This document shows, piece by piece, positions 1-64,000 of a DNA stretch of 64,000 bases; position 1 is the stretch's first letter, and every line of letters begins with the position of its first letter. The translations under genes and the position numbers were made by a program. Under the pieces are notes generated by a model. The model ran no database searches, had not been told where the DNA came from, and worked only from the letters and a program-made list of their open reading frames with translations. The stretch is from Sedimentisphaerales bacterium (lineage in GTDB: Bacteria > Planctomycetota > Phycisphaerae > Sedimentisphaerales > SM23-30): NCBI GenBank assembly GCA_963666285.1, contig OY762711.1; one strand, 5' to 3'.

Positions 1-2
1 CC

Positions 3-2372
3 TGGTTCGAAACTGCTATTTTGCATCAGCATAACTGGCAGGCTAAATGGCTGAATGATGGCAAAACTAACCCGGCTGTCGAAGAGGATTTCTTTAAATT
101 CGATCCGGCTCCATTATTCCGCAAGGATTTCACCCTGACCAAACCCGTCAGCCAGGCCCGTCTTTATATCACTGGCCTTGGCTATTATGAAGCTTCTCTA
201 AACGGCAAACGCATCGGCGACCATCTCCTCGATCCCGGCTGGACCGACTTCTCCAAAAGGATTTATTACAGTACATACGACCTCACCGACCGGCTGACAA
301 CAGGCGGCAATTGTCTAGGCGTCACACTTGGCAACGGCTGGTTTAACCCGCTCCCTCTACGCATGTGGGGGCATCTCAATATTAGAGAACACCTGACTGT
401 CGGTCGCCCTCAATTCATCGCCCAGCTCAAAATCACTTACAAAGATGGCTCTGAGCAGCTGATCACCAGCGACACCGGCTGGAAGGTCACAGAAGGCCCA
501 ATTATACGCAATAGCATCTACCTTGGCGAAATTTACGATGCTCGCAAGGAACTTGCCGCATGGAATATGCCCGGCTTTGACGATTCCGCCTGGCACAACG
601 CTGCTCTGGCTGATTCGCCCGCTCCAATCCTCCAGGCCCAGCCGCTCCTTCCGATCAGATCCACTGCCGTTATTAAGCCTGTTAGCGTAACAGAGATCAA
701 AGATGGTGTTTATATTGTCGATATGGGCTGCAATTTCGCCGGACTGGCATCTTTCAAATTTAATCTCAAAAAGTCCGCCATGGTTAAAATGCGATATGGC
801 GAACTCCTATATAATGACGGCACATTGAACCCAATGACCAGTGTCTGCGGTCAGATCAAGGGCAAGCGGAACGACTCCCTCCAGGCCAATCCCGGCCTCG
901 CCTGGCAGGAAGACATATATTTCGCCAAAGGCTCATCCCCGGAAATCTACACCCCGCGGTTTACTTTCCACGCCTTTCGCTATATCGAGATTACCGGGCT
1001 GCCCCAAAAACCCGAGCTCGATTCTATCACCGGCTACCGCTTAAATACAGACGTTACTCCTGTCGGCAGCTTTTCCTGCTCAAACGACCTTTTCAATTCC
1101 ATCCAGCAAATATGTCAGACATCTTTCCTCAGTAATATATTCAGTGTTCAGTCTGACTGCCCGCATCGCGAACGGTTCGGCTACGGCGGCGACCTGGTCA
1201 ATACCAATGAGGCCTTCATATACAATTATGATATGGCCAATTTCTATGCCAAGGCTGTTCAGGACTGGGACGACTGCAAGCTGGCCGACGGCATGCTCAC
1301 CGATACCGCTCCCTTCGTCGGCATCCAGTATTGCGGCGTAGGCTGGGCCATGGCACATCTACATACTCAGCTTGTCCTGTACCGCTATTATGGCGACCTT
1401 ACAATTCTTCAGCAGCAATATGATACCGCGGTCCGGTGGTTTGACCTCGTTATCAACAGCAATCCGGATTTCATCGTCAACCAGGGCCTGTCCGACCATG
1501 AAACTCTAACCGAAAATCCCGCTCCAACTCTGGTTACGCCTCTTTATTTTCAATGTGCCAATATGCTCGCACAAATCTCTGCAATACTCGGCAAAAACGA
1601 CAATCGAGACAAATACCTCACTCTCGCTGATAATATTATGACTGCCTATAACGGCAAATTCTTTGACACTGCTACCGGCAAATGCGGCTCCGGCACCCAA
1701 TCCAGCCAGTCTTTCGCTTTGTATTCTGATATTCTGCCTCAGGATTCTCAAAAAGCGGCATTTCAATACCTTCTCGATCGCATCAAAAAATGCGATAATC
1801 ATTTATCTACCGGCATTTTCGGCACAAACTACATGCTCGATATCCTCTCCCGCCAGGGCAGCGGCGAGCTCGCTTACACCATCGTCAACCAGCGAACATT
1901 TCCAGGATGGGGCCATATGCTCGAAAGCGGGGCAACCTCTCTATGGGAACACTGGCAGTTCAGCGACAATACCTACTCGCACAACCATCCGATGTTCGGC
2001 TCGGTCTCAAAATGGTTCTACAGCTCTCTCGGCGGCATAAAGCCTGATCCACAGGCCGTTGGCTTTGACAAAATTATTATCAACCCGCTCGTTCTAAAAC
2101 AGCTGCAATGGGTAAAATCCACCTACAACTCCGTCAGGGGGCCAATCACCTCGAACTGGCACAAATCTGATAATGAGATAACCTTCGATATTACTATCCC
2201 TGCCAATACTACTGCCACAGTATATCTGCCTTCCGATAAACTGCAAGCCATCAAAGAGGGCGGTAAACCAGTTACTGCCGTCAGTGATATCAAACTATCC
2301 ACCTGTAATAACGGCGTATCCGCCTGGAACATCGGTTCCGGCTCATACCACTTTACCATCCCGTGCAAATAG
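3..2372 (+). CDS. Alpha-L-rhamnosidase, glycoside hydrolase family 78 (5' end lies upstream of the window)
   Basis: GH78 motifs PAPLFRKDF, ARLYITGLGYYE, FTFHAFRY, SDCPHRERFGYGGD, GATSLWEHW and SHNHPMFGSV. The frame is open to the window edge (WFETAILHQ from nt 3), so the TTG at 21 is unlikely to be the true start. Confidence 0.93.
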   Translation, partial: WFETAILHQHNWQAKWLNDGKTNPAVEEDFFKFDPAPLFRKDFTLTKPVSQARLYITGLGYYEASLNGKRIGDHLLDPGWTDFSKRIYYSTYDLTDRLTTGGNCLGVTLGNGWFNPLPLRMWGHLNIREHLTVGRPQFIAQLKITYKDGSEQLITSDTGWKVTEGPIIRNSIYLGEIYDARKELAAWNMPGFDDSAWHNAALADSPAPILQAQPLLPIRSTAVIKPVSVTEIKDGVYIVDMGCNFAGLASFKFNLKKSAMVKMRYGELLYNDGTLNPMTSVCGQIKGKRNDSLQANPGLAWQEDIYFAKGSSPEIYTPRFTFHAFRYIEITGLPQKPELDSITGYRLNTDVTPVGSFSCSNDLFNSIQQICQTSFLSNIFSVQSDCPHRERFGYGGDLVNTNEAFIYNYDMANFYAKAVQDWDDCKLADGMLTDTAPFVGIQYCGVGWAMAHLHTQLVLYRYYGDLTILQQQYDTAVRWFDLVINSNPDFIVNQGLSDHETLTENPAPTLVTPLYFQCANMLAQISAILGKNDNRDKYLTLADNIMTAYNGKFFDTATGKCGSGTQSSQSFALYSDILPQDSQKAAFQYLLDRIKKCDNHLSTGIFGTNYMLDILSRQGSGELAYTIVNQRTFPGWGHMLESGATSLWEHWQFSDNTYSHNHPMFGSVSKWFYSSLGGIKPDPQAVGFDKIIINPLVLKQLQWVKSTYNSVRGPITSNWHKSDNEITFDITIPANTTATVYLPSDKLQAIKEGGKPVTAVSDIKLSTCNNGVSAWNIGSGSYHFTIPCK

Positions 2373-2455
2373 AGCAAGCAATATACAATATCCTACTCAT
2401 TGTATGACCGATTTTATCCTTTGGTTTCAATGAGCTTATAACTGCTGTATCCTTA

Positions 2456-2490
2456 CCGCCCGCTGCTCGCTGCTGGCCGCTGATTGCCTG
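2456..2490 (+). repeat. Degenerate 7-bp tandem repeat (CCGCCCG CTGCTCG CTGCTGG CCGCTGA TTGCCTG)
   Basis: Five imperfect heptamers read directly in the intergenic DNA. Confidence 0.45.
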
Positions 2491-2662
2491 TCTATTAATT
2501 ACTTTTGATTTACTCTCAATTTTTGCTATCATAAGTGTGTTATTTTGGAAAATTGATTAATGGCCGGGGATGCTGACTTTCTTTATCTCTTTGGCCTTAA
2601 ATGGTTTACTTATAATATTTTAAGGTTGTGTTTCGTATTTGGTCTCAAAGTTGTTTTTTTAC

Positions 2663-2690
2663 CTGAAACTTGAAACCTGGTCCCTGAACC
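2663..2690 (+). repeat. Degenerate 7-bp tandem repeat (CTGAAAC TTGAAAC CTGGTCC CTGAACC)
   Basis: Four imperfect heptamers just upstream of the RBS of the GLUG gene. Confidence 0.45.
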
Positions 2691-2710
2691 CTTAAATTAG
2701 GAAAGAGATT

Positions 2711-5299
2711 ATGAAAAAGTCTGGTCTGTTTGTATTTTTATTGGTTCTATTTACTAGTTCACTCACCATGGCCGCCAACGGCGACCTCGGCGTTTCCAGT
2801 GGTGCCGATGGCTCCGAATCCGATCCCTTCCTCATCGAAGACTTTACCGACTTCCAGGCATTCTGCGCCGACACCGCTAAATGGGCTTCCGGCGTCCACA
2901 CCCGCCTCGAAACCGACCTCGACCTTGCCCCCAATCTCCCTGGCAGACAAATCTATACCCAGGCACCAATTGCAGGCGATACCGACTCCGATTACACCTT
3001 TGACGGCACAGCCTTTGCGGGCAGCTTCAATGGCAATAATCATGTGATTAAAAATCTGGAAATCAATGGAGCATACTATTGTGGACTATTCGGTAAAACA
3101 GAGTCAGGTTGTGAGATAACCAATCTTGGTTTAGACAATATCGCTATCACTGGCGATTATTATACCGGCGGTCTTTGTGGTGAAAATCATGGTACTATCT
3201 CCAACTGTTATGCAACTGGTTCGGTTTTGGGCAATCATTCTATCGGCGGTCTTTGTGGTGAAAATCAAGGTACTATCTCCAACTGTTATGCAACTGGTTC
3301 GGTTTCGGGTGATCATTCTATCGGCGGTCTTTGTGGTGAAAATCAAGGTACTATCTCCAACTGTTATGCAACTGGATCAGTTTCGGGTGGTAGTCGCTCA
3401 TATACTCTCGGTGGTTTCTGTGGGTATAATCCATCTGGTACTATTATCAACTGTTTTCATTATTTTTATGGTGGACCCGATAATGGCTTTAGTTCTCCTC
3501 TTGACGATAATGAGTTGCAGACTAAAGCTAGTTTCATTGGTTTTGATTTTTCTGGCGATTCATCTGACGGTACTGATGATTATTGGTCTATTGAGGCTGG
3601 TTATATGCCGAGACTTTCATGGCAAATTTCATCCGGTTTTGAACCTCCGTATTTATTAAACACTTTAGTAACTTCACTTCCTGGCACAGGCTACTCTAAT
3701 GATCCGTTTATTATTACTGACTATGATGATATTTTAGAATTTAGAAATAACAGTTCACTTCGTATCGGGTATTATAGTCTGGTAGCAGATATTGACCTGG
3801 TTGGTATTACATATCCAGATGCATTTATACCGGAATATTTTTTGGGAACATTACTTGGTAATGGTCATGTAATATCAAATCTGGCGATTGATGGAGAGTC
3901 AGGCCTTGGCTTTTTTAAGATAGTGTATGGTTCTGTAACCAATCTTGGTTTAGACAATATCGCTATCACTGGCGATTATTATACCGGCGGTCTTTGTGGT
4001 GAAAATTGGGGTACTATCTCCAACTGTTATTCAACTGGTGATGTTTCGGGTGGACATATTTCGAATTTTACCGGCGGTCTTTGTGGTGAAAATTGGGGTA
4101 CTATCTCCAACTGTTATTCAACTGGTGATGTTTCGGGTGGACATATTTCGAATTATACTGGCGGGCTTTGTGGTGAAAATAGAGGTTCTATCTCTAATTG
4201 TTATTCAACTGGCTGTGTTTCGAGTGATTATTATTCGTATTATATCGGTGGGCTTTGTGGTGAAAATAGCGGCACTATCTCTAACTGTTATTCAACTGGC
4301 AGTGTTACCGGTGAACGTACAACCTATTACCTGGGTGGACTGTGCGGGGAGAATACTGGCGTAATAACTCATTGTTATTCAACTGGCAGTATAATCGGTC
4401 ATGATAATTGTTATCAACTTGGCGGCATCTGTGGGAAAAATGGTACACGAAATTTAGAAGGGATAATTTCCTATTGTCATTTTACCGGTAGCGTAACTGG
4501 TGAATTAGATTGCGGCGGTCTTGGTGGCTTATGTGGGGTTATTTATTCTGGCATAATAACCAACTGTTATTCAACTGGCAGCGTAACAGGCGGATTGTAT
4601 TGTCGTTACATCGGCGGATTCTGCGGGCAAAAAGCTTCAATTGAATTTAATGGCTTTTGGAATAGGATTTCTAATTGCTATTCAACTGTGAATGTTAACT
4701 GTGGAGATTATAGTAGTTCTATAGGTGGTTTCTGTGGAGCGAGTGGTAGCGGCGCATTAAGCAATTGCTATTCTACTGGGAATGTTAACTGTGGAGATTA
4801 TAGTAGTTCTATAGGTGGTTTCTGTGGAGCGAATGGTAGCGGAGTATTAAGCAATAGCTATTCTATCGGCAGCGTATCAGGTGGAGTTGAATGTACCTAC
4901 CTCGACGGATTCTGCGGATACATGACAAGGTCGTCACATAGTGATACCACCCTCGGTGACATTAGTAATTGTTTCTGGGATAATGAAACTTCAGGTATTT
5001 CGACAAACAACCATTATTACGACAAAACCACCGCCGAGATGCAAACCCAATCTACCTTCACCGATGCCGGCTGGGACTTCAACGTCGAATCCGACAACGG
5101 CACAGACGACCTCTGGCATATGCCGTACAACGCAGCCGGTTACCCAATACTCTACTTCCAGCGTGACATCCCCGGCGACCTCTCCGGCTCCTATGGCATA
5201 AACCTCTCCGACTTCAGCGAATTGTCCAATGGCTGGATGATTGATTTTGAATTTGCTGATTTGGAAGAACTGGCAGAATATTGGCTGGAAGGTAAATAA
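2711..5299 (+). CDS. Secreted GLUG-motif repeat protein with C-terminal dockerin-like domain
   Basis: Signal peptide; two 'G....PF.I....D' GLUG-family N-caps; more than 12 GGLCGEN.GTISNCYSTG repeats; TTAEMQ..STF..AGWDF; C-terminal GDL.G.YGINLSDF...WL. Confidence 0.88.
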   Translation: MKKSGLFVFLLVLFTSSLTMAANGDLGVSSGADGSESDPFLIEDFTDFQAFCADTAKWASGVHTRLETDLDLAPNLPGRQIYTQAPIAGDTDSDYTFDGTAFAGSFNGNNHVIKNLEINGAYYCGLFGKTESGCEITNLGLDNIAITGDYYTGGLCGENHGTISNCYATGSVLGNHSIGGLCGENQGTISNCYATGSVSGDHSIGGLCGENQGTISNCYATGSVSGGSRSYTLGGFCGYNPSGTIINCFHYFYGGPDNGFSSPLDDNELQTKASFIGFDFSGDSSDGTDDYWSIEAGYMPRLSWQISSGFEPPYLLNTLVTSLPGTGYSNDPFIITDYDDILEFRNNSSLRIGYYSLVADIDLVGITYPDAFIPEYFLGTLLGNGHVISNLAIDGESGLGFFKIVYGSVTNLGLDNIAITGDYYTGGLCGENWGTISNCYSTGDVSGGHISNFTGGLCGENWGTISNCYSTGDVSGGHISNYTGGLCGENRGSISNCYSTGCVSSDYYSYYIGGLCGENSGTISNCYSTGSVTGERTTYYLGGLCGENTGVITHCYSTGSIIGHDNCYQLGGICGKNGTRNLEGIISYCHFTGSVTGELDCGGLGGLCGVIYSGIITNCYSTGSVTGGLYCRYIGGFCGQKASIEFNGFWNRISNCYSTVNVNCGDYSSSIGGFCGASGSGALSNCYSTGNVNCGDYSSSIGGFCGANGSGVLSNSYSIGSVSGGVECTYLDGFCGYMTRSSHSDTTLGDISNCFWDNETSGISTNNHYYDKTTAEMQTQSTFTDAGWDFNVESDNGTDDLWHMPYNAAGYPILYFQRDIPGDLSGSYGINLSDFSELSNGWMIDFEFADLEELAEYWLEGK

Positions 5300-5384
5300 T
5301 AGCCGAATCATTCAGTGCCTTTGATAAATCGCCTAAAAGGGACTTACTGCAACGCTTTGAATTTAAACAAAATGTGAGACGATA

Positions 5385-5994
5385 GCGAATTATTCCTGAT
5401 GTCAACGTACATCGGGGCACCGGAATTTTTCATTTTTAATTTAGCAAAGCTCACCACTCTTCTTATTTTTTAGATTTCCAGATTTCAGACAGATACTACA
5501 ATTTTGACATAAACTGTACTCACGCGTCAGCTTTAAAATAGTCGTCCCGATGTATATCGGGACACCTCCTTTACAATTTTTATTTTACCCTTTACACTTC
5601 AGATGCCGCGAAGCGGCATCTGGTTGGCCCAGTGGTGAAAACCAGGCGGATAGGCTCATGGTAAATGTCTGCCGTTATGGCTCCGTGGCCCGCCGCGCAC
5701 CCTCCGGTGGCCGCCGCGCTATCGCCGTGCGGTCTCCGTAGGTATGCCGTAAGTTAAGAAGAGCTCTTCTCGCCGCCGCGCTAATCCGTTGCCCCTCCGT
5801 AAGCCGCCGTTGCCCGTCGCGCTGGCTCAATAGCCCGCCGTCGGTCGGCGTTCGCCGGGACGAGCCGCCGTTTCTCTTTTTAACGCCGCACTGCCTCCGC
5901 GCTGCCTCCGCGATACCTCCGTACACCCGCCGCGAGGTCTCCGCAAGTCGTCAATGGTGTTCCGCTGCCCGCGGCAGGCTTTCGCGCGAAATTA
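5385..5994 (-). repeat. ~600 bp non-coding element, copy A (inverted copy of 9546-10144), with a 10-11 bp phased RCGG(A/C)G array and palindromes
   Basis: The reverse complement aligns by eye over its full length with 9546-10144 (roughly 85-90% identical). GC-rich core at 5670-5975. Confidence 0.92.
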
Positions 5995-6107
5995 TATTAA
6001 ATATCAGGTAAAAACACGATCAGATAATAATCAAAGTACAAAAAATGGAAATAACCATATTTGGCAGGCTCATAAAGGTGGTCAAAACGTAGGCCCAAAT
6101 AGAAATA

Positions 6108-7664
6108 TTACTCAGAAATTGATAATGCACCGGTCGGGCAGGATTCAGCCAGATCAGCAGCCAGTTCGGCAGGCAGTTCGCCAAGATCCATGCCAAGCGG
6201 AGCAACCACCCTGGTATCATAGCCCCGACAACTGAACGTAAGTGCCTTATCTGGATTAAAGTTAGCAGATATTTGTACGCATATGCCGCACTTTATGCAC
6301 TTGCCTGGCTCATAGATGAGCCTATTACTCCCGGCATACTCTATTGTATATTCCTTACGCTGAGAATGTTTGTACGCTGTCGGCGAAGCATCCAGTAAGC
6401 TGCTGTATTTACGCAACTTACAATTGTCAACATCACGACAGTCACAATGCAGACAATCTGCTGCGGTTGGTTTTTCGCTGCTCTTTTCGCTCTTGCTATC
6501 CAGCATATCACGCAGCCGGGCTATCCGAAACAGCTCATCTTCGGTAAACTTGCCTATTCGAGTATTGAACGGTTTGGGCTCACCAGTTACAGGAACACCC
6601 GCCAGAAACTGGCAAATACTCACCGCCGCATATCGGCCCTGACCAACCGCACGAACTGCCATCCGCCCCGCCTGGTTGATTCCACCTGCGGTAAACACAT
6701 TCTTAAACTCTTCATTAACAGATACTTGCAAGGCAAGCTTATCAATTACCGGTTTTTCAGATTCTCCGGTAACCAGCCCCCATTGAACAAAAAACTCATC
6801 ACTTTTAGGGCCGGTTGCCAGCAGTACCGCATCATATTTACCCGTAAGCTCTGTCAGCGTTAAGTCTTTACCAAGCTCACTTTGTGAATATTCAGCTCCC
6901 ATCTCAAACGGCATAGCAGTTTCAGCCTTCAGAATATCAGCCGGCAGCTTCTCAGACTCTATCTGGAGCAGACCGCCGCCTGGTTCGGCTTGTTTATCAA
7001 ATACCGTAGCCTTATGCCCTGCAAGGGTTAAGTGCCACGCAGCAGACAGACCGGCAGGACCGGCACCGACAATTGACACACTCTTGCCCGTACTGGCAGC
7101 CGGTTTTGGTACAGCCATATTATTGATAATATAATAGCCGACATCTCCTTTAAGCTCACAGATCGGTATGGACCTACCTGTTTGCTTATGTCGGCATATT
7201 TTTTCGCATGGTGCCGGGCATATCGCCGCCAGAATTCCCGGTATCGGTATCGTCTGCCGCACAATTTCCGCGGCTCTCGGCATGTCACCGGCACTTATCG
7301 CTCGCAGCATATTGGGAATGTCCAGATCAGCCGGACACGCTACCTGACAAGGCCCCAGGCAGTCGCCCAGATGCTCGCTCAGCAGCAGTTCTAAAGCCTT
7401 ACGACGCAAGTGGATAACTTCCTCGGTCTCACTGTCGATTCGCATTTCATGTGTAACCTCGGTCGCACAGGAAGGAGCAAATCCGGCCCGGCCATGAATT
7501 TTCACCAGGCAGACCATACAGGTAGTATTCGGCTTGCACTTTTTGTTATAGCACAATACCGGAATCTCGATCCCGGCTTCTTTTGCAGCCTGATAAATCG
7601 TTTTACCAGCTTCAGTTACGATCTGTTTGCCGTCAATAGTAATTGTTATCTGCCTGCTGTCCAT
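6108..7664 (-). CDS. Fe-S flavoprotein: N-terminal NuoG/FdhA-like 2Fe-2S domain, GltD-like FAD/NAD(P) oxidoreductase core, C-terminal 4Fe-4S domain
   Basis: IPVLC..CxxC...PSC (2Fe-2S); PCQVACP...ICPAPCEKIC (GltD-type clusters); VGAGPAGLSAA dinucleotide fold; CLHCDC..C.LR; CIKCGICV...CPTGAL. Confidence 0.85.
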   Translation of the reverse strand: MDSRQITITIDGKQIVTEAGKTIYQAAKEAGIEIPVLCYNKKCKPNTTCMVCLVKIHGRAGFAPSCATEVTHEMRIDSETEEVIHLRRKALELLLSEHLGDCLGPCQVACPADLDIPNMLRAISAGDMPRAAEIVRQTIPIPGILAAICPAPCEKICRHKQTGRSIPICELKGDVGYYIINNMAVPKPAASTGKSVSIVGAGPAGLSAAWHLTLAGHKATVFDKQAEPGGGLLQIESEKLPADILKAETAMPFEMGAEYSQSELGKDLTLTELTGKYDAVLLATGPKSDEFFVQWGLVTGESEKPVIDKLALQVSVNEEFKNVFTAGGINQAGRMAVRAVGQGRYAAVSICQFLAGVPVTGEPKPFNTRIGKFTEDELFRIARLRDMLDSKSEKSSEKPTAADCLHCDCRDVDNCKLRKYSSLLDASPTAYKHSQRKEYTIEYAGSNRLIYEPGKCIKCGICVQISANFNPDKALTFSCRGYDTRVVAPLGMDLGELPAELAADLAESCPTGALSISE

Positions 7665-7817
7665 AAGTAATATAATATAGTGTTATTACAGGATTTATAC
7701 CAGAAATTTGTCGATAATAATAAAGTTGAAATTATTTTGCTTTGAATAATGAATAACTAGTGATATTATTATGTAACCGTATTTAATGGACTTACAATCA
7801 AAAACCTACCTGAAAAC

Positions 7818-8999
7818 ATGGATGCAGCTCAAGCGGACAACCTTTCATATATCTATATAGATTCCAACGAAGCAATAGCCGAAGTATGTGAAAAAATGCA
7901 GCATGCAGATGCCGTTGCTATCGATATCGAATGTGACAGTCTATACCATTATTATGAAAAAGTTTGCCTGCTTCAACTTTCATTTTCCGGTGTAAACTAT
8001 TTAATAGACACACTTTGTGGAATTGGCGTCGGTCAGGTACTGGATGTCTTATCACGTCAGAAGATCATCGTGCACTGCGGTGATTATGATTTCCGGATGC
8101 TGCGAAAATGCTATGGCTTTTTGCCCAGGGGCGAGGTTTTTGATTCCTGGATAGCTGCCCGGCTATTGGGATTTGAACGGGTTTCACTGTCAGATCTGGT
8201 TAGGACCATGCTGGATGTTGACCTGCCGAAAAGCTCACAGAAATCCGACTGGTCGCGCAGACCCTTGTCAGATAAGCAGATAGAATACGCAGTAAGAGAC
8301 ACCTGCTACCTGGAACAGCTGGCAGGCAAGCTATCAGATACGCTGGAGGCTAAGGGCCGCAGCCAATGGAACGAGCAAGGCGTCCAAGAGATGCTCCAGC
8401 GAGCCAGTTTTACCGAAGAGCAGGAAAACAATAACCCAGATAAAGTATGGCGTATAAAGGGTTTAAATAAATTATCCACCCGTCAGCTGGAATATGTCCG
8501 GCAGTTGTGGTTCTGGCGTGACATACTGGCCAGGAAGATGGACCGGCCACACTTTAAGGTGATGTCGAATTCAATGATAATAGATATCGCTATCTGGGCC
8601 TCCAAACACCATCACCATAGTAAACCGGTTACTGCCATCAAAGGCGTTAGAATGCCTAAGACCCTTAATGGAAAGCGTTTAGAAAGTTTTACCCGGGCAC
8701 TGAACCGAGGCCATAAAACAGCAGATGCCAAGCTGCCGCCAAGAAGACTGCCGGTGGATAACAGCGATTATGATGAGAATTATGCACTGCTGGACGTCGA
8801 ACCATATCAGAAGGCATGCTGCCAGGTAGCCGAGAAGCTTGGAATTGAGCCGCCAATACTGGTGACTCGCGCTCAATGGTATAAGATTCTGATCGAAATG
8901 CCGGGCGATATAGATGAGATTTTACAGAAAGCCGAGATACTTCCCTGGAAATATGAGTATATCAAGGAAATGCTCAACATGGTCGAATCCGGTAGCTAA
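7818..8999 (+). CDS. rnd: Ribonuclease D (DEDDy 3'-5' exonuclease plus HRDC domain)
   Basis: AIDIE, CLLQL, H...YD, SDWSRRPLS.KQIEYA..D; HRDC motif LWFWRD..AR..DRP.FKV. Confidence 0.9.
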   Translation: MDAAQADNLSYIYIDSNEAIAEVCEKMQHADAVAIDIECDSLYHYYEKVCLLQLSFSGVNYLIDTLCGIGVGQVLDVLSRQKIIVHCGDYDFRMLRKCYGFLPRGEVFDSWIAARLLGFERVSLSDLVRTMLDVDLPKSSQKSDWSRRPLSDKQIEYAVRDTCYLEQLAGKLSDTLEAKGRSQWNEQGVQEMLQRASFTEEQENNNPDKVWRIKGLNKLSTRQLEYVRQLWFWRDILARKMDRPHFKVMSNSMIIDIAIWASKHHHHSKPVTAIKGVRMPKTLNGKRLESFTRALNRGHKTADAKLPPRRLPVDNSDYDENYALLDVEPYQKACCQVAEKLGIEPPILVTRAQWYKILIEMPGDIDEILQKAEILPWKYEYIKEMLNMVESGS

Positions 9000-9030
9000 G
9001 TATATATAATAATGGAGCTTATGAGTTTTT

Positions 9031-9435
9031 ATGCACTTTAATAAAGGCAGACAAGACAAAGATGAAGGTCTGAATTTCACCGCTATGATAGATGTGGTGT
9101 TTCTGCTGCTGATATTCTTTATGTGTACAGCTTCGGTGCAGCTGCCCGAAAGTGAGATCAAGGCCGCCATTCCCGGCAGCTCCAATACCGTACCGGAGTT
9201 TCAGCCGGTGCGAATCGATATAAATACTGTTGGAGAAAATATTTCTGTAACTTGTGACGGCCGGCTCTGTGAAAATGACAGCACATTGAGCAGCCATATA
9301 TCCGCCCGTAGCCAGATAGCCGATCTGCCGGTTATCTTTTCTATTGATGACAATGTTGAGTTTGACGATATCGTGCATGTAATGGACATATGCCGACAAT
9401 CCGGCCTCAAAAAGCTTGCCATACCTACTAACTAG
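9031..9435 (+). CDS. exbD: ExbD/TolR family biopolymer transport protein (no exbB next to it)
   Basis: LNFTAMIDVVFLLLIFFM transmembrane motif; C-terminal D....F..IV.VMD.C..SG. Confidence 0.88.
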   Translation: MHFNKGRQDKDEGLNFTAMIDVVFLLLIFFMCTASVQLPESEIKAAIPGSSNTVPEFQPVRIDINTVGENISVTCDGRLCENDSTLSSHISARSQIADLPVIFSIDDNVEFDDIVHVMDICRQSGLKKLAIPTN

Positions 9436-9545
9436 CCCTATCCACCTGCTTTGGTACAACCAATTTTAAGCAAAACTGGTACTTCCATTTCTGTTTTTTG
9501 TCAGGTCGTTTTTACTTTCATGTTATCCCCTGAGGAATTGTGCAG

Positions 9546-10144
9546 TAATACGCGTGAAAACTTGCCGCGGGCAGCGAAACTCCATCGGCTACCTGCGGAG
9601 ACCTCGCGGCGGGTGTACGGAGGTATCGCGGCGGCAAGCGGCGGCAGCGCGGCGTTAAAAAGAGAAACGGCGGCTCGTCCCGGCGAACGTCGATCAACGG
9701 CGGGCTATTGAGACAGCGCGACGGTTAGCGGCGGCTTACGGAGGCCCAACGGATTAGCGCGGCGGCGAGAAGAGCTCTTCTTACCTTACGGCATACCTAC
9801 GGAGGCTACGCGGCGATAGTACGGCGGCCAACGGAGGGTACGCGGCGGGCCACGGAGCCATAACGGCGAATATTCACTCTGTGCCAATCCGCCGGATTTT
9901 CACCACTGGGCTGACCAGATGCCGCTCCGCGGCATCTGAAGTGTAAAGGGTAAAATAAAAAGAGTAAAGGAGGTGTCCCGATGTACATCGGGACGACTTA
10001 TTTTAAAGCTGACGCGTGAGTAAATTTTATATCAAAATTGCAGTATCTGTCTGAAATCTGAAAATTAAGAGGAGTGGTGAGCTACGCTAAATTAAAAATG
10101 AAAAATTAAGGTGTCCTGATGTACGTTGACCAGGAATAATTCGC
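9546..10144 (+). repeat. ~600 bp non-coding element, copy B (inverted copy of 5385-5994), with a 10-11 bp phased RCGG(A/C)G array and palindromes
   Basis: CGG cores at 9586, 9596, 9607, 9618, 9629, 9639, 9650; 9729, 9739, 9750, 9760; and 9789, 9800, 9811, 9822, 9832, 9843, 9853, 9864. Palindromes at 9768-9781, 9916-9938 and 9975-9994. Confidence 0.92.
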
Positions 10145-10970
10145 ATTTGCGGACAACTTGTTTTAAACGGCTACGCCTTATAAGAGAACCGCTGATGAAC
10201 ACCGATGCACACCGATAAAGAAAAGAAATGGAAAGCGATTGGCAGATGAGCAGTAGAACAGGAAAGTTGAAGTTCAAGTAATTTTGAAATGATTTATTTC
10301 TCGCAAAGACCGCGAAGCTCGCAAAGGATTTGAGCTGTGAATAATGAAATGGTAAATACTGACTAATACTGTCTGGGCAAAAAACGGTTGTAATTTTTTG
10401 GTAATTGGAATATGTTTTGGGGAGTGGGTATTAATTTGCGGGCAGATTGTTTTAAACGGCTACGCCTTATAAGAGAACCACTGATAAACACCGATGCACA
10501 CCGATAAAGAAAAGAAATGGAAAGCGATTGGCAGATGAGCAGTAGAGCAGGAAAAGGAAAGTTGAAGTTCAAGTAATTTTGAAATGATTTATCTCTCGCA
10601 GAGACCGCGAAGCTCGCAAAGGAATTGAGCTGTGAATAATGAAATGGTAAATACTGACTAATACTGTCAGGGCAAAAAACGGTTGTAATTTTTTGGTAAT
10701 TGGAATATGTTTTGGGGAGTGGGTATTAATATGCTGACAGTTTGTTTTAAGCGGCTACGCCTTATAAGCGAACCACTGATAAACACCGATGCACACCGAT
10801 AAAGAAAGAAAAAATGGAAATCGATTGGCAGATGAGCAGTAGAACAGGAAAAAGAAAGTTGAAGTTCAAGTAATTTTGAAATGATTTATCTCTTGCAGAG
10901 GATTTGAGCTGTAAATAATAAAACAGTAAATATTGGCTAATACTGTCTGTCAAAAAACGGTCGTATAAAA
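10145..10970 (+). repeat. Tandem repeat of ~290 bp, three copies (third partial)
   Basis: Units start at about 10145, 10434 and 10729 (periods 289 and 295 bp). Each contains TTGTTTTAARCGGCTACGCCTTATAAG, ACACCGATGCACACCGATAAAG and GATTGGCAGATGAGCAGTAGA. Confidence 0.93.
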
Positions 10971-11097
10971 ATGACAAATACCGGAGGCACTTGCGTCTTC
11001 ACCTTTGGCAACGACGCGACGGAGATGTGCCTATTTAAACCGCCTGTTGACGTAAATACCATTCCTGCAATTTTGCTGATGTTCGCAGATAATAATA

Positions 11098-12537
11098 TTA
11101 TTTTTGCCATAGCCAGTCAGCTGCAAATTGGGCGAGGTCGGCCAGGTCGATATTGTTATCGTTGTTGCTGTCGTGACGGTGGCGGTGTTCCATAGTGAAA
11201 GTATAATTACCGCCGGCCTGACCGTCATTGTCACCGTCGATTGAGTTGCCGGTTGCTGAACTTACAACGGAGTCTTTTACAATGATAGTGTATTTATCAT
11301 TGAGTAGAGTTTCGCCGAAAGCAATGATAAGAAATGAGCTACCGCTGCCGGTAACGCTAAGCGGAATGGTTTCGCCGGTTTCGTTAGTGATTTCAATATC
11401 ACTGTTGTTGAACTCTATGATATCGTTGAAGAACAGGGTTGCAGAATCTATACCGTTCTCGTTGGTATATACACCATCAGTTGGATTTTTCGGTTCGCGC
11501 ATGACAAATTCGGGGCCAATAGTTACAGCGTCAGCTTTATAGATATGCCATATGCCGTTAGCATCTGATACATACATATGCATACTGTCGTCGCTGACAG
11601 TTATTGACTCAATATTATAAAACCCCTTGGCAAATTCACTATCGGAACCATCCGGTTCAACTGCTTGAACCGCATTAGTATAGCGTTCGGTGACATATAA
11701 TTGTTGGCCAAACGAACCGCCATTGCTAAAGGCGAGGTCACGATATTGTCGACTGTTTGTATGGACAGGTGAATTTAACTCAGACCATACCCATTCAGTT
11801 TCAATATTATATAATTGATAGATTACACATTTTTGGTCATGGTTATAATCCCAATCTACCATAGTCAATCTTCCATTATATAACCCAGTTGAGTCGGTTT
11901 TCATACCCCAAATATCTAGGTCTGTTCTTCCTATTGGAAGTGAATTTTGAGATATCTTAGTCATGTTGAAACTAGTGTCTGCAATGTACAAGCTAGAACC
12001 ACCAGTAACATGTCCATCAACGAGAATTATATTAGCATTAGATGATTTATCGATAACAAAATCAAATATGCAACATAAATAATCAGAACTGTCTCCAAGA
12101 GCAGATTCAACTGTAAATTGATTCATTCCAGAAAGACGAATTAAATTAGTCCTATTTGTTTCATTATTATTATCGCTGTCGTATTGTACTGATATGAAAA
12201 GCTCACTACTAAACTGACCGGTCCAATCAAAACGAATTGAACGAACATCGCTAACATTCGGGTAGCCACTTTTAATTCCTATTGATGTTACAATTCCATT
12301 AGATATCCTAAAAACTTTAAGTATCCCATTATCAACACCAGCAGCAACTACACCTGTGCCATAAGCTGGATTTCTAACTGCTTCCAGTCTAGGTGTTTGG
12401 CCGTCCAGAGCAGATATGATATGTGTTACGACAAAATTTGTATCAGGATTGCCATCTGGTCCAACTACATATGGGTCAGCAAAAACTAAAGCAGGCAAGC
12501 AGAGAGTGATTGTTAAACTTAAAATAGTAGACTTCAT
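11098..12537 (-). CDS. Secreted protein with beta-propeller-like region, Ig-like domain and C-terminal dockerin-like motif
   Basis: Start moved to MKSTILSL (ATG 12537, GAGG RBS); signal peptide; L.NDKYTI.V.D.V....GNSIDGDNDG.AGGNY.F.F (Ig-like); DSNNDNNIDLADLAQFAADWL. Confidence 0.75.
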   Translation of the reverse strand: MKSTILSLTITLCLPALVFADPYVVGPDGNPDTNFVVTHIISALDGQTPRLEAVRNPAYGTGVVAAGVDNGILKVFRISNGIVTSIGIKSGYPNVSDVRSIRFDWTGQFSSELFISVQYDSDNNNETNRTNLIRLSGMNQFTVESALGDSSDYLCCIFDFVIDKSSNANIILVDGHVTGGSSLYIADTSFNMTKISQNSLPIGRTDLDIWGMKTDSTGLYNGRLTMVDWDYNHDQKCVIYQLYNIETEWVWSELNSPVHTNSRQYRDLAFSNGGSFGQQLYVTERYTNAVQAVEPDGSDSEFAKGFYNIESITVSDDSMHMYVSDANGIWHIYKADAVTIGPEFVMREPKNPTDGVYTNENGIDSATLFFNDIIEFNNSDIEITNETGETIPLSVTGSGSSFLIIAFGETLLNDKYTIIVKDSVVSSATGNSIDGDNDGQAGGNYTFTMEHRHRHDSNNDNNIDLADLAQFAADWLWQK

Positions 12538-13061
12538 TATATTGATCCTCAAATAAAATTTATCTTTATTCGTAACTTGAAGGTGAATTACAAGCGGGTA
12601 TAAAAGCAATTTCCAGAGGTCACCTAAATAATAAGCAACCATCAAAATTTACGTCCTATAACTGTGTATATGATAGCTGTCATTTTTTGAAAAAACAAGT
12701 ATTTGTAAATGATTTCATGATGGGAGCAGGGTTTGAGGTGGTTGTGTGTTTGGGTTATGTTTATTTTTTATAAGTATTTATGTGGATTTTGGTAATATGT
12801 TTTTGTGTAAAATTTATGCAATGGGTGAAAAAATGTAATTTATGCGGTTTTGGCGGGGTATAAGTAGTTGTGTAAGTAAAAGCGTTAAAAAATGTGATAA
12901 AAGATATGAGTGGCAACGGAGGTGAGACGATAGTAGTTGGGAGGTTTTACCGGTGTAGTTATTTTTATTGAGAATTACGATAATTGCCTGTATATTAAGG
13001 GTTTGTTGAAAGTTTTTATGCCGGAATGAAGGCGAGATTCAGAAAGATAAGGGTTTGAAAC

Positions 13062-18459: not shown

Positions 18460-19273
18460 TTTTGAGTGAATACTTAGTTTTGGCGAATCCGGTATTATAC
18501 CTAAACCATGCGAAGGCAGCGGCAATAAGAATTAAGGGCCAAAACTGCCTGATAAATATATAGAGGGAATTGATTCTTTCATAACCTGCTAGAAACGGGA
18601 GTGCCGCAATAAGAATGAGTGTGATAATCCTGGCCGTTTTGCAGGTGTATATATGCGGCCTGAGATTGGGGTGTTTTTCTATGATAATCCAGGCCAGGTA
18701 TGCCGCGAGTATGCCGATGGCGGCCCCAGCGATAGTGTCGGAAGGGTAATGTTTGGATGCGAGAATTCTCAGTAGTGCGATGATAAATGCGGATGAATGC
18801 AGGACAGTTAGAGCGGCGAACCGGAATGCGGCGATGGAGCTGTTGGCTATGTATGGTGTAAGAGCAGTTGCGACGGCGTATGCTGTTGCTGTATCGCCGG
18901 AAGGGAAGGAAGATAACTGTCTGTCAAAGTGATGTTCTTTTTCAGGCTGGGCGGTAACAGCGATTTGGAATTCCGGTCGAGGTCTGGCGATAAAATATTT
19001 AGCCGGGTAAACAAAAGGGAAGATAAGCGGCATTGCGATAATGGCGACAAGAACCGGTTTTACCTGTCGAGTGGTAATGAGCCAGATAAGCAGAAGCCAT
19101 ATTGGTACCCATGCTTTTCCGAGTTGGCGGAATGCGTTTATCCAATGGTTAGTGCAAATGTTGGGCCGATATTTAAAAAGGAAAAAATAGACCTTGTCAT
19201 CCAGGAAGAAATAGCTGGCAGTAGTAAGTAGAGCCAGAGCAGATATAATAATGATTATGATATTACGTTTCAT
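18437..19273 (-). CDS. PAP2-family membrane phosphatase
   Basis: K....RPRP, SFPSGD(T) and R....KHYPSD..AG motifs; several TM segments. Confidence 0.85.
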   Translation of the reverse strand: MKRNIIIIIISALALLTTASYFFLDDKVYFFLFKYRPNICTNHWINAFRQLGKAWVPIWLLLIWLITTRQVKPVLVAIIAMPLIFPFVYPAKYFIARPRPEFQIAVTAQPEKEHHFDRQLSSFPSGDTATAYAVATALTPYIANSSIAAFRFAALTVLHSSAFIIALLRILASKHYPSDTIAGAAIGILAAYLAWIIIEKHPNLRPHIYTCKTARIITLILIAALPFLAGYERINSLYIFIRQFWPLILIAAAFAWFRYNTGFAKTKYSLKINFLKSS

Positions 19274-63642: not shown

Positions 63643-64000
63643 CAATTGAAGAGTTTGATCCTGGCTCAGAACGAACGCTGGCGGCGTGGCTAAGACATGC
63701 AAGTCGAACGAACTGAGAGAATTTCGGTTTTCAAAGTTAGTGGCGGATGGATGAGTAATGCATAAATAACGTACCCTTGACTCTGGGATAGCTGCGGGTT
63801 TTACCCTTTAGCGAAAGTGCAGGTAATACCGGATAACATTCCGATATCGTATGGTAATGGAATCAAAGAATTTTGGTCAGGGAGCGGTTTATGTCGTATC
63901 AGTTAGTTGGTGGGGTAAAGGCCTACCAAGACTTCGACGCGTAGCGGGACTGAGAGGTTGGCCCGCCATATCGGGACTGAGACACTGCCCGGACCTCCAC
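63643..64000 (+). rRNA. rrs: 16S rRNA gene, 5' part (continues past the window)
   Basis: AGAGTTTGATCCTGGCTCAG at 63650, AACGCTGGCGGC, CATGCAAGTCGAACG, and the planctomycete-like GGGACTGAGACACTGCCC. Confidence 0.98.

What the first reader, a model, noticed from the sequence alone, without database searches (positions are those of the whole stretch)
5300..12960. GC-skew polarity switch straddled by the paired elements: candidate non-canonical replication origin
Seen (hand-counted sample lines, not a full scan): left of the elements the + strand is C-rich even inside a + strand gene (601-660: 26 C, 12 G). To the right it is G-rich in non-coding DNA (12721-12780: 20 G, 1 C) and even inside a - strand gene (18841-18900: 22 G, 10 C), and it stays G-rich in lines sampled out to ~58 kb. 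Established: a C-rich to G-rich switch on the + strand is the polarity of oriC, not of the terminus. The rRNA operon ~55 kb to the right is co-directional with the predicted fork. The G-rich strand of each 600-bp element lies on the predicted leading strand and points outward, and the genes between the elements diverge at 7664/7818. No dnaA, dnaN, gyrB, gidA or parAB gene and no perfect DnaA box was seen. Inference: an origin region flanked by two outward-facing phased protein-binding arrays (initiator, helicase or SMC loading, or segregation sites). An inversion breakpoint or a misassembly at the repeat is the alternative.
Basis: partly seen in the sequence, partly recalled or inferred. Interest (0 to 1): 0.82.

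Follow-up and report, generated by a model that had tools for sequence, protein, structure and literature searches.

The report
Polar repeat arrays imposing strand bias
This is not the chromosome's replication origin, which lies far away; it is one of dozens of one-way repeat arrays, each followed by tens of kilobases in which one DNA strand has become purine-rich whichever way the genes point, the trace of an unexplained process that starts at the arrays.

Summary
The C-to-G switch and the paired 600-bp elements are real. The origin reading is wrong: canonical oriC (global skew minimum, gyrB-dciA-dnaN | parB, DnaA boxes, two parS) lies 1.5 Mb away.

The pair are 2 of 58 intergenic arrays of RCGG repeated every 10-11 nt. 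On the array strand, silent sites in the next 10 kb have GC skew +0.29 (null 0.006±0.034; 52 of 58 positive), for genes on either strand and on both replichores, fading over 30-50 kb. The signature is purine gain (G, A); oriC's G+T signature persists beneath it, so these are not local replichores.

Congener G003 has a stronger saw-tooth anchored on a different phased element: 7 of 7 predicted sites switch, its oriC does not.

Best guess (35%): tandem RNA-polymerase pause/loading sites for the genome's single UpxY-like NusG paralogue, which sits inside a switch in G000 and G003. No RNA evidence exists. Auxiliary origins, a DNA-tracking motor, or passenger repeats remain open. I found no description in nine searches. 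The scan noted similar saw-tooth skews on other DNA (giant virus, archaeon, plasmid).

The parts
5385..5988 (-). Left ~600-bp element (type-A subfamily), facing outward
   Evidence: blastn 88.3% over 605 nt to the right element; alignment
5672..5972 (-). RCGG array, 29 units, spacing mostly 10-11 nt
5619..5631 (-). Conserved anchor TGG-N5-CCAGA, overlapping hairpin 1 (5600-5622)
   Evidence: the anchor follows 23 of 58 arrays within 160 nt
5544..5563 (-). Hairpin 2 followed by a T-rich tract (terminator-like)
6108..7664 (-). Fe-S / FAD oxidoreductase gene in the core between the elements (4-fold skew -0.26)
   Evidence: Pfam
7818..8999 (+). RNase D-like gene (3'-5' exonuclease + HRDC) in the core (4-fold skew -0.10)
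9031..9435 (+). ExbD/TolR gene, reads into the right element
9551..10145 (+). Right ~600-bp element, facing outward
9567..9866 (+). RCGG array, 31 units; includes the palindrome GAAGAGCTCTTC at 9769-9780; folds worse than shuffles as RNA (z +2.33)
9907..9938 (+). Anchor TGG-N5-CCAGA and hairpin 1; anchor-to-anchor distance of this pair is 4276 bp
9974..10005 (+). Hairpin 2 plus T-rich tract (terminator-like module)
10145..10960 (+). Three tandem ~295-bp copies of purine-rich modules that also occur elsewhere in the genome
11098..46549 (+). Right domain: + strand G/A-rich at silent sites in genes of both orientations (per-gene +0.08 to +0.66)
1..5299 (-). Left domain: minus strand G-rich at silent sites of two + strand genes (rhamnosidase, GLUG-repeat protein); fades within about 10 kb

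Best explanation
Shown: each element is a polar entry site, and a strand-asymmetric force acts on the 30-50 kb downstream of it, favouring G and A over C and T on the array strand regardless of genes. An outward-facing pair therefore mimics an origin. Inferred: the tracking machine is RNA polymerase. CGG every 10 or 11 nt puts a G at -10 of each following C-G step, making a tandem of consensus pauses (G-10, Y-1, G+1). The pauses would give time to load the genome's single UpxY/RfaH-like NusG paralogue. The hairpin + T-tract module just downstream would stop unmodified polymerase. Modified polymerase would run on through genes of either orientation, and the untranslated RNA would be selected (or mutated) towards low C and U, the composition that escapes Rho.
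For: Polarity: 52 of 58 arrays are followed by positive skew, 25 of 29 against the replichore; single type-B arrays have upstream skew about 0. Pause geometry: G at -10 in 69% of CGG; RCGG spacings 10/11 = 193/285 against 9/12 = 3/3; GG-N8-YGG 393 against 134±9 in shuffles and 1 on the other strand; with one representative of each of 14 subfamilies, 44/45 against 3/2. The consensus is from PMC5423485 (passages); ops is itself a consensus pause (10.1101/2023.06.26.546588, passages). G003's unrelated element also chains R-Y-G at 10-11 nt. Hairpin + T-tract modules: 89 of 89 inside domains are on the array strand, and 33 of 58 arrays have one within 400 nt. The signature matches the Rho target score, excess C plus T-richness (PMC13323073, passages); rho is present. 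The only NusG paralogue lies inside pair 0; in G003 it lies in a -0.6/+0.6 switch, and in G001 near a weaker one. Of 9 G003 switch cores, only this gene and its dedA neighbour map to a G000 pair. Two complete relatives in which the paralogue was not found show no domains (rms 0.05 and 0.06, against 0.22 in G000).
Against: No transcript data. About half of the genes in the domains face the array, so the RNA would be antisense to whole operons for tens of kb (100-150 kb in G003), with no evident benefit. A 10/11 spacing is equally what a protein filament on one face of DNA needs. G003's element is not enriched for GG-N8-YG (21 against 22±4), nor is G030's domain start (8 against 7±2), and that start is single-copy. 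The paralogue is at or inside a strong domain in only 2 of 10 more distant relatives; G027, G029 and G023 carry it with weak skew. The two paralogue-free genomes are one family. It scores below the NCBIfam UpxY cut-off (71.5 against 100). Pair 2 shows no switch, and 8 of 20 sharp switches have no array within 10 kb. The model does not explain the near-fixed pair spacing.
Confidence: 0.35

Rival explanations
1. Auxiliary replication start zones. The arrays bind an initiator or load helicase, and forks leave the 3-4-kb core in both directions in some cell cycles, giving an N-domain-like saw-tooth beside a normal oriC.
For: Sharp upward jumps with gradual decline (G003: jumps at 3816 and 4122 kb; G000: 20 sharp C-to-G against 7 G-to-C switches). 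All 5 close pairs are divergent. Repeats in helical phase beside AT-rich tracts resemble iteron origins (recalled). G003's oriC shows no silent-site switch.
Against: The domain term has A>T (+0.16) whereas the oriC term has T>A (-0.06), and the oriC term persists inside domains (-0.043, 95% interval -0.063 to -0.025). Genes in domains that oppose oriC forks still follow oriC (190 of 306, 62%, against 63% outside). One DnaE and one chromosomal DnaB. Single arrays act on one side only.
Confidence: 0.2
2. A DNA-level loading array for a sequence-specific protein filament plus a tracking motor (SMC, ParB-like clamp, helicase or translocase) that organises the chromosome or exposes one strand.
For: Phasing of 10-11 nt is kept while the motif changes from RCGG to RTGT between congeners. 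The array is unstructured as RNA. Anchor-to-anchor distances are 4275, 4276, 3860, 3878 and 5023 bp around unrelated genes, and the widest pair is the one without a switch.
Against: No candidate protein was identified. Canonical parS sites exist only at oriC. Phase coherence at 10.5 bp is weak beyond 25 nt (0.03-0.09). I know no such motor that biases base composition (recalled).
Confidence: 0.2
3. Passenger repeats. The domains are made by an unidentified process, and mobile REP/MITE-like repeats insert or survive at domain starts in one orientation.
For: 8 of 20 sharp switches lack an array, and pair 2 lacks a switch. Type-B copies are 77-89% identical to the seed copy, which may be too young to have reshaped silent sites. 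IS copies cluster in the same places. In G003 the switch midpoint lies 2-3 kb upstream of the element and the other side has no recognisable element.
Against: 14 sequence-unrelated subfamilies keep the same spacing rule and all 14 are followed by positive skew. 12 of 20 switches carry an array within 10 kb, against 3.7±1.7 expected. Skew rises abruptly at the arrays.
Confidence: 0.2
4. The chromosome's own (non-canonical) origin.
For: Correct polarity and a strong local switch.
Against: Global minimum at C1:5,742,437 and maximum at 2,697,613, half a chromosome apart. gyrB-dciA-dnaN and parB flank a 2.7-kb gap with six relaxed DnaA boxes (one perfect) and two perfect parS. Four similar pairs lie elsewhere.
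Confidence: 0.01
5. Misassembly or a recent inversion at the repeat.
For: No public contig spans either element to its outer flank. Partners within a pair are usually each other's closest copy, which suggests recombination between them.
Against: Collinearity with G003 across the right element. One contig covers 5916-9623 and enters both elements. Flipping the core cannot create the flanking skew. The same pattern recurs at dozens of sites and in other genomes.
Confidence: 0.02

Closest known systems
ops/RfaH and opsX/UpxY processive antitermination (10.1101/2023.06.26.546588; 10.1101/2024.06.21.599965; passages read)
   Same: Consensus-type pause in a leader, a hairpin nearby, and a NusG paralogue of the UpxY/RfaH/LoaP group in the genome.
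   Different: Known sites are single pauses in the leader of a co-oriented operon. Here there are 9-33 units per array at 58 sites, the downstream genes face either way, and silent sites are remodelled for tens of kb.
Rho-avoidance purine bias of runaway transcription (PMC13323073; passages read)
   Same: Low C and low T on one strand, with altered codon usage.
   Different: There the bias follows the sense strand of each gene; here it follows position and overrides gene strand.
Bacterial oriC GC-skew switch
   Same: C-rich to G-rich polarity.
   Different: Local and repeated, with purine rather than keto bias; no DnaA-box cluster, parS, dnaN or gyrB; the real oriC exists elsewhere.
Skew N-domains of mammalian genomes (PMC4319821, PMC3794905: search listing only; details recalled)
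   Same: Upward jumps with gradual decline between them.
   Different: A bacterial chromosome with a single-oriC signature still visible, and jumps tied to discrete repeat elements.
Intergenic heptamer repeats such as TAACTGA (PMC4679880; abstract and passages read) and REP/MITE-like hairpin repeats (recalled)
   Same: Heptamer runs and GC-rich hairpins make up the 3' part of the element and recur through the domains.
   Different: That paper ties orientation to nearby start codons and the word 'skew' does not occur in it. Here 127 of 145 period 7-10 arrays inside domains follow the upstream RCGG array.
Iteron origins and parC-type centromeres with 10-11-bp repeats (recalled)
   Same: Direct repeats in helical phase.
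   Different: Only a 4-nt word is conserved, there is no adjacent rep or par gene, and there are dozens of chromosomal copies.

Membership tests
Chromosomal oriC | At the global cumulative GC-skew minimum | tested here: not met
   Minimum at C1:5,742,437; the window is at 1.12-1.18 Mb
Chromosomal oriC | DnaA-box cluster, parS, dnaN/gyrB/parB nearby | tested here: not met
   All found at 5.735-5.743 Mb; four scattered relaxed boxes and no perfect one in 5300-12960
Chromosomal oriC | One per chromosome | tested here: not met
   5 divergent pairs, 58 arrays
Secondary replication origin | Flanks carry the replisome's strand signature and replace the oriC signature | tested here: not met
   Opposite A/T sign; the oriC term persists inside domains
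Secondary replication origin | Coverage peak or Okazaki strand switch | not testable with these tools
   Only contig depths were available
ops/opsX antitermination leader | Consensus pause G-10 Y-1 G+1 on the non-template strand | tested here: met
   1260 against 869±19 in shuffles; GG-N8-YGG 393 against 134±9; sequence match only
ops/opsX antitermination leader | Cognate NusG paralogue encoded | tested here: inconclusive
   One paralogue, best hit UpxY but below its cut-off; cognacy not shown
ops/opsX antitermination leader | Leads a co-oriented operon | tested here: not met
   First downstream gene co-oriented in 33 of 58; both window elements face a convergent gene
ops/opsX antitermination leader | Pausing and factor-dependent read-through | not testable with these tools
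   Needs NET-seq or in vitro transcription
Known structured RNA | Rfam match or stable fold | tested here: not met
   No Rfam hit on the elements; core z +2.33
Composite transposon / MITE pair | Same cargo or a transposase between the repeats | tested here: not met
   The five cores hold unrelated ordinary genes; target-site duplications were not examined
REP/RAYT repeats | Short palindromes mobilised by a Y1 transposase | not tested
   Hairpin modules are present; no RAYT search was made

The most novel reading that the evidence does not exclude
Some Sedimentisphaerales divide their chromosome into 10-60 polar domains, each opened at a species-specific phased array by a processive machine other than the oriC replisome (antiterminated RNA polymerase, auxiliary forks or a motor). 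The machine runs 30-150 kb through genes of either orientation and rewrites silent sites about five times more strongly than replication, enough to hide oriC in skew plots.
Probability: 0.6. Interest if true: 0.9.

Novelty: categorically new. Interest (0 to 1): 0.8.

Why it matters
Strand bias in bacteria is normally explained by the two replichores plus the sense strand of genes. Here a third, positional force is much stronger than replication (regression coefficient about 0.20 against 0.04), covers roughly a quarter of the chromosome, starts at identifiable cis-elements, and sets the codon usage of orthologous genes by where they sit. It gives named sites and a named candidate protein for testing either chromosome-scale processive transcription or multiple start sites in a bacterium. 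It also warns that local skew switches can mislead origin prediction and assembly checks: in G003 the dnaN/parS origin shows no silent-site switch.

Tried and rejected
Origin at the pair: rejected. Origin at the dnaA copy 1.6 kb past the window end: it has three relaxed boxes but no C-to-G switch (+0.19 left, -0.06 right).

Structured RNA: no support. Sigma-70 promoter scan: 13 sites against 9.3±3.1 expected, uninformative.

The RCGG element in relatives: blastn 0 of 30 genomes. The phased pattern gave 100 hits in G000 and 0-6 in each of 40 relatives, about the level of the reversed control. One narrow metagenome pattern gave 2 hits, both chance matches in GC-rich coding DNA.

A driving k-mer in domain genes: effects at most 0.24 log2, RCGG not enriched. 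Mutation spectrum: IS copies are 98-100% identical and uninformative. Rare variants in 30 type-B copies lean towards G (A>G 0.25 against T>C 0.10; C>G 0.18 against G>C 0.06), but on 7-32 events per class.

Sequencing runs: no RNA holder listed. Contig depth in run X1 is 7.4 between the elements and 17-21 on the flanks. This is a trough, not a peak, but it is one figure per contig, may reflect library loss at an inverted repeat, and X1 may be the source sample, so I do not count it.

A second replisome: not found. G030's domain start as a repeat: single copy. An ops-like 12-mer (pattern recalled, from no call): 11 of 53 genomic matches lie in arrays, one per window element; a lead only.

Literature: nine searches listed no paper describing such domains. 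The library lacks most subscription papers and I read no supplements.
Full report
Setting. The window is G000:C1:1,120,001-1,184,000 of a 6.15-Mb contig. Records for the two closest loci of its NusG paralogue are labelled Sedimentisphaerales. Gene calls are my own greedy ORF calls. '4-fold skew' means (G-C)/(G+C) at third positions of four-fold codon boxes in ORFs of 450 nt or more.

The observation. The two elements are 88% identical and face outward. It is the second-strongest switch on the chromosome. The left arm fades within about 10 kb and the right arm lasts about 35 kb.

It is not oriC. Cumulative skew has its minimum at 5,742,437 and maximum at 2,697,613. At the minimum, gyrB-dciA-dnaN and parB flank a 2.7-kb gap with six relaxed DnaA boxes and two perfect parS sites (box and parS patterns recalled). 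This is 1.5 Mb from the window if the contig is circular. The two dnaA genes lie at 6.147 and 1.186 Mb; neither is at oriC and neither shows a C-to-G switch.

It is a family. The core is an array of RCGG. A scan for intergenic, strand-exclusive runs of 9 or more units gave 60 arrays, 58 after merging neighbours. None of the phased pattern occurs on the three small contigs. They fall into 14 sequence subfamilies of 30, 11, 4, 3 and ten single members, and 29 of 58 point along the leading strand. Typical order: array, anchor TGG-N5-CCARA (23 of 58), hairpin, purine-rich heptamers, hairpin + T-tract (33 of 58). Five close pairs exist and all are divergent; four were listed and pair 4 was measured. 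Anchor distances are 4275, 4276, 5023, 3860 and 3878 bp around unrelated genes. Four of the five pairs show a switch; pair 2, the widest, does not.

The domains. In the 10 kb downstream, 4-fold skew on the array strand is +0.29, against 0.006±0.034 (maximum 0.098) for 300 sets of random intergenic sites matched for strand and replichore. 52 of 58 arrays are positive, including 25 of 29 that oppose the replichore. Overlapping domains make the arrays less than fully independent, but all 14 subfamilies are positive. Genes that face the array are affected as much as co-oriented ones. G and A rise while C and T fall, and synonymous codon use shifts accordingly. A regression on 3181 genes gives a best decay length of 30-50 kb and raises explained variance from 0.07 to 0.27 for G-C and from 0.15 to 0.32 for A-T. 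Windows of 30 kb downstream of arrays cover 27% of the chromosome. 12 of the 20 sharpest switches have an array within 10 kb (3.7±1.7 expected) and 8 do not. Inside domains, 127 of 145 period 7-10 tandem repeats and 89 of 89 hairpin + T-tract modules lie on the array strand.

Not local replichores. The oriC term is G+T on the leading strand (G-C +0.04, A-T -0.06). The domain term is G+A (+0.19, +0.16). The oriC term persists inside domains with intervals that exclude zero. Gene orientation in domains that oppose oriC forks is unchanged, 62% against 63%. There is one DnaE and one chromosomal DnaB.

Relatives. The RCGG element was not found in 30-40 relatives, but the domains were. In congener G003, whose oriC is near 46 kb, 450 kb of adjoining loci show jumps from about -0.6 to +0.5 at 3816 and 4122 kb, with a gradual decline between them. 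A ~170-nt element with RTGT phased at 10-11 nt sits at both jumps and has 7 further long copies (of 21 hits, 9 long and 1 short were examined, 11 short ones were not). All 7 sit at C-to-G switches; for one of them I had already seen the left side. The short copy lies inside a domain without a switch, and oriC shows no switch. Silent skew of 224 orthologue pairs is uncorrelated between G003 and G000 (rho -0.09). The genes at window 13062 and 15541 are +0.51 and +0.44 here and -0.56 and -0.51 in G003. Sign-changing skew also appears along single contigs of G030 and G017; G032 shows a decaying domain; G001 is modest; G027, G029 and G023 are weak. G025 and G037 are flat (7 and 9 scorable bins of 10 each). 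G003 loci were partly chosen near elements, so its rms is not comparable.

Mechanism. Shown: polarity, spacing rule, signature, reach, and independence from genes and from oriC. Inferred: the identity of the machine. I favour RNA polymerase. Spacings of exactly 10 and 11 keep a G at -10 of the next C-G step, which is the published consensus pause (PMC5423485, passages), and spacings 9 and 12 are almost absent. A terminator-like module follows the array. The composition matches Rho avoidance (PMC13323073, 12 of 19 passages; I did not see how that paper classes planctomycetes). The single NusG paralogue, found in 35 of 41 genomes searched, lies inside a switch in G000 and G003 and was not found in the two flat genomes. 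Against this stand the lack of RNA data, the long antisense reach, the weak link in distant relatives (2 of 10), and the unexplained 3.9-4.3-kb pair spacing. Helical phasing explains the 10/11 rule equally well. I give this reading 35%, and about 20% each to auxiliary forks, a DNA-tracking motor and passenger repeats.

Comparison and novelty. It works most like an ops/opsX leader (PMC4499132 passages) joined to a Rho-avoidance code, but it fails the test of leading a co-oriented operon. It looks like oriC or an N-domain border but fails the position, signature and uniqueness tests. Nine searches listed no description of it; subscription papers and all supplements were unseen. Earlier scan notes describe the heptamer and hairpin modules of this genome and saw-tooth skews in a giant virus, an archaeon and a plasmid; I did not test the latter.

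Noticed in passing
window 63643-64000 and L007:1-3000: The 16S gene is not followed by 23S; a second dnaA (minus strand) ends about 400 nt after it and has three relaxed DnaA boxes upstream. Neither dnaA copy is at oriC.
   Followed up: partly
L003 (C1:5,739,570-5,742,252): Canonical oriC between dnaN and parB, with two perfect parS and no dnaA or parA gene beside it; an RCGG array lies 3.6 kb to its right.
   Followed up: yes
C1:248,402-252,677 and window 5631-9907: Anchor-to-anchor distances of two pairs with unrelated cargo differ by 1 bp (4275 and 4276); two others are 3860 and 3878.
   Followed up: partly
C1, nine copies each of an IS3-like and an IS110-like element (families assigned by eye): Near-identical IS copies cluster in the domains, often just behind arrays; 6 of 9 are co-oriented with the domain in each family.
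   Followed up: partly
C1:5,266,394 and 5,273,547: Two copies of the same group II intron-like piece flank pair 5.
   Followed up: no
C1, nine full four-helix-bundle (PF05635) genes checked: 8 of 9 lie on the locally G-rich strand.
   Followed up: partly
window 5916-9623: Contig depth between the elements is 2-3 times lower than on the flanks in run X1.
   Followed up: no
L051:8900-9060 and eight more G003 copies: G003's entry element is built from TGTACA/TGTATATA palindromes, and G000's anchor is a TGG-N5-CCA palindrome; both recall GntR-family operators (recalled, untested).
   Followed up: no
window 11098-12645: A secreted-looking protein with no Pfam match, absent from the collinear G003 locus, inserted behind the right element.
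   Followed up: no
window 2711-5299: GLUG-repeat protein whose Gly-rich repeats mask the C-rich silent sites in all-base skew (3001-5000 reads positive).
   Followed up: yes
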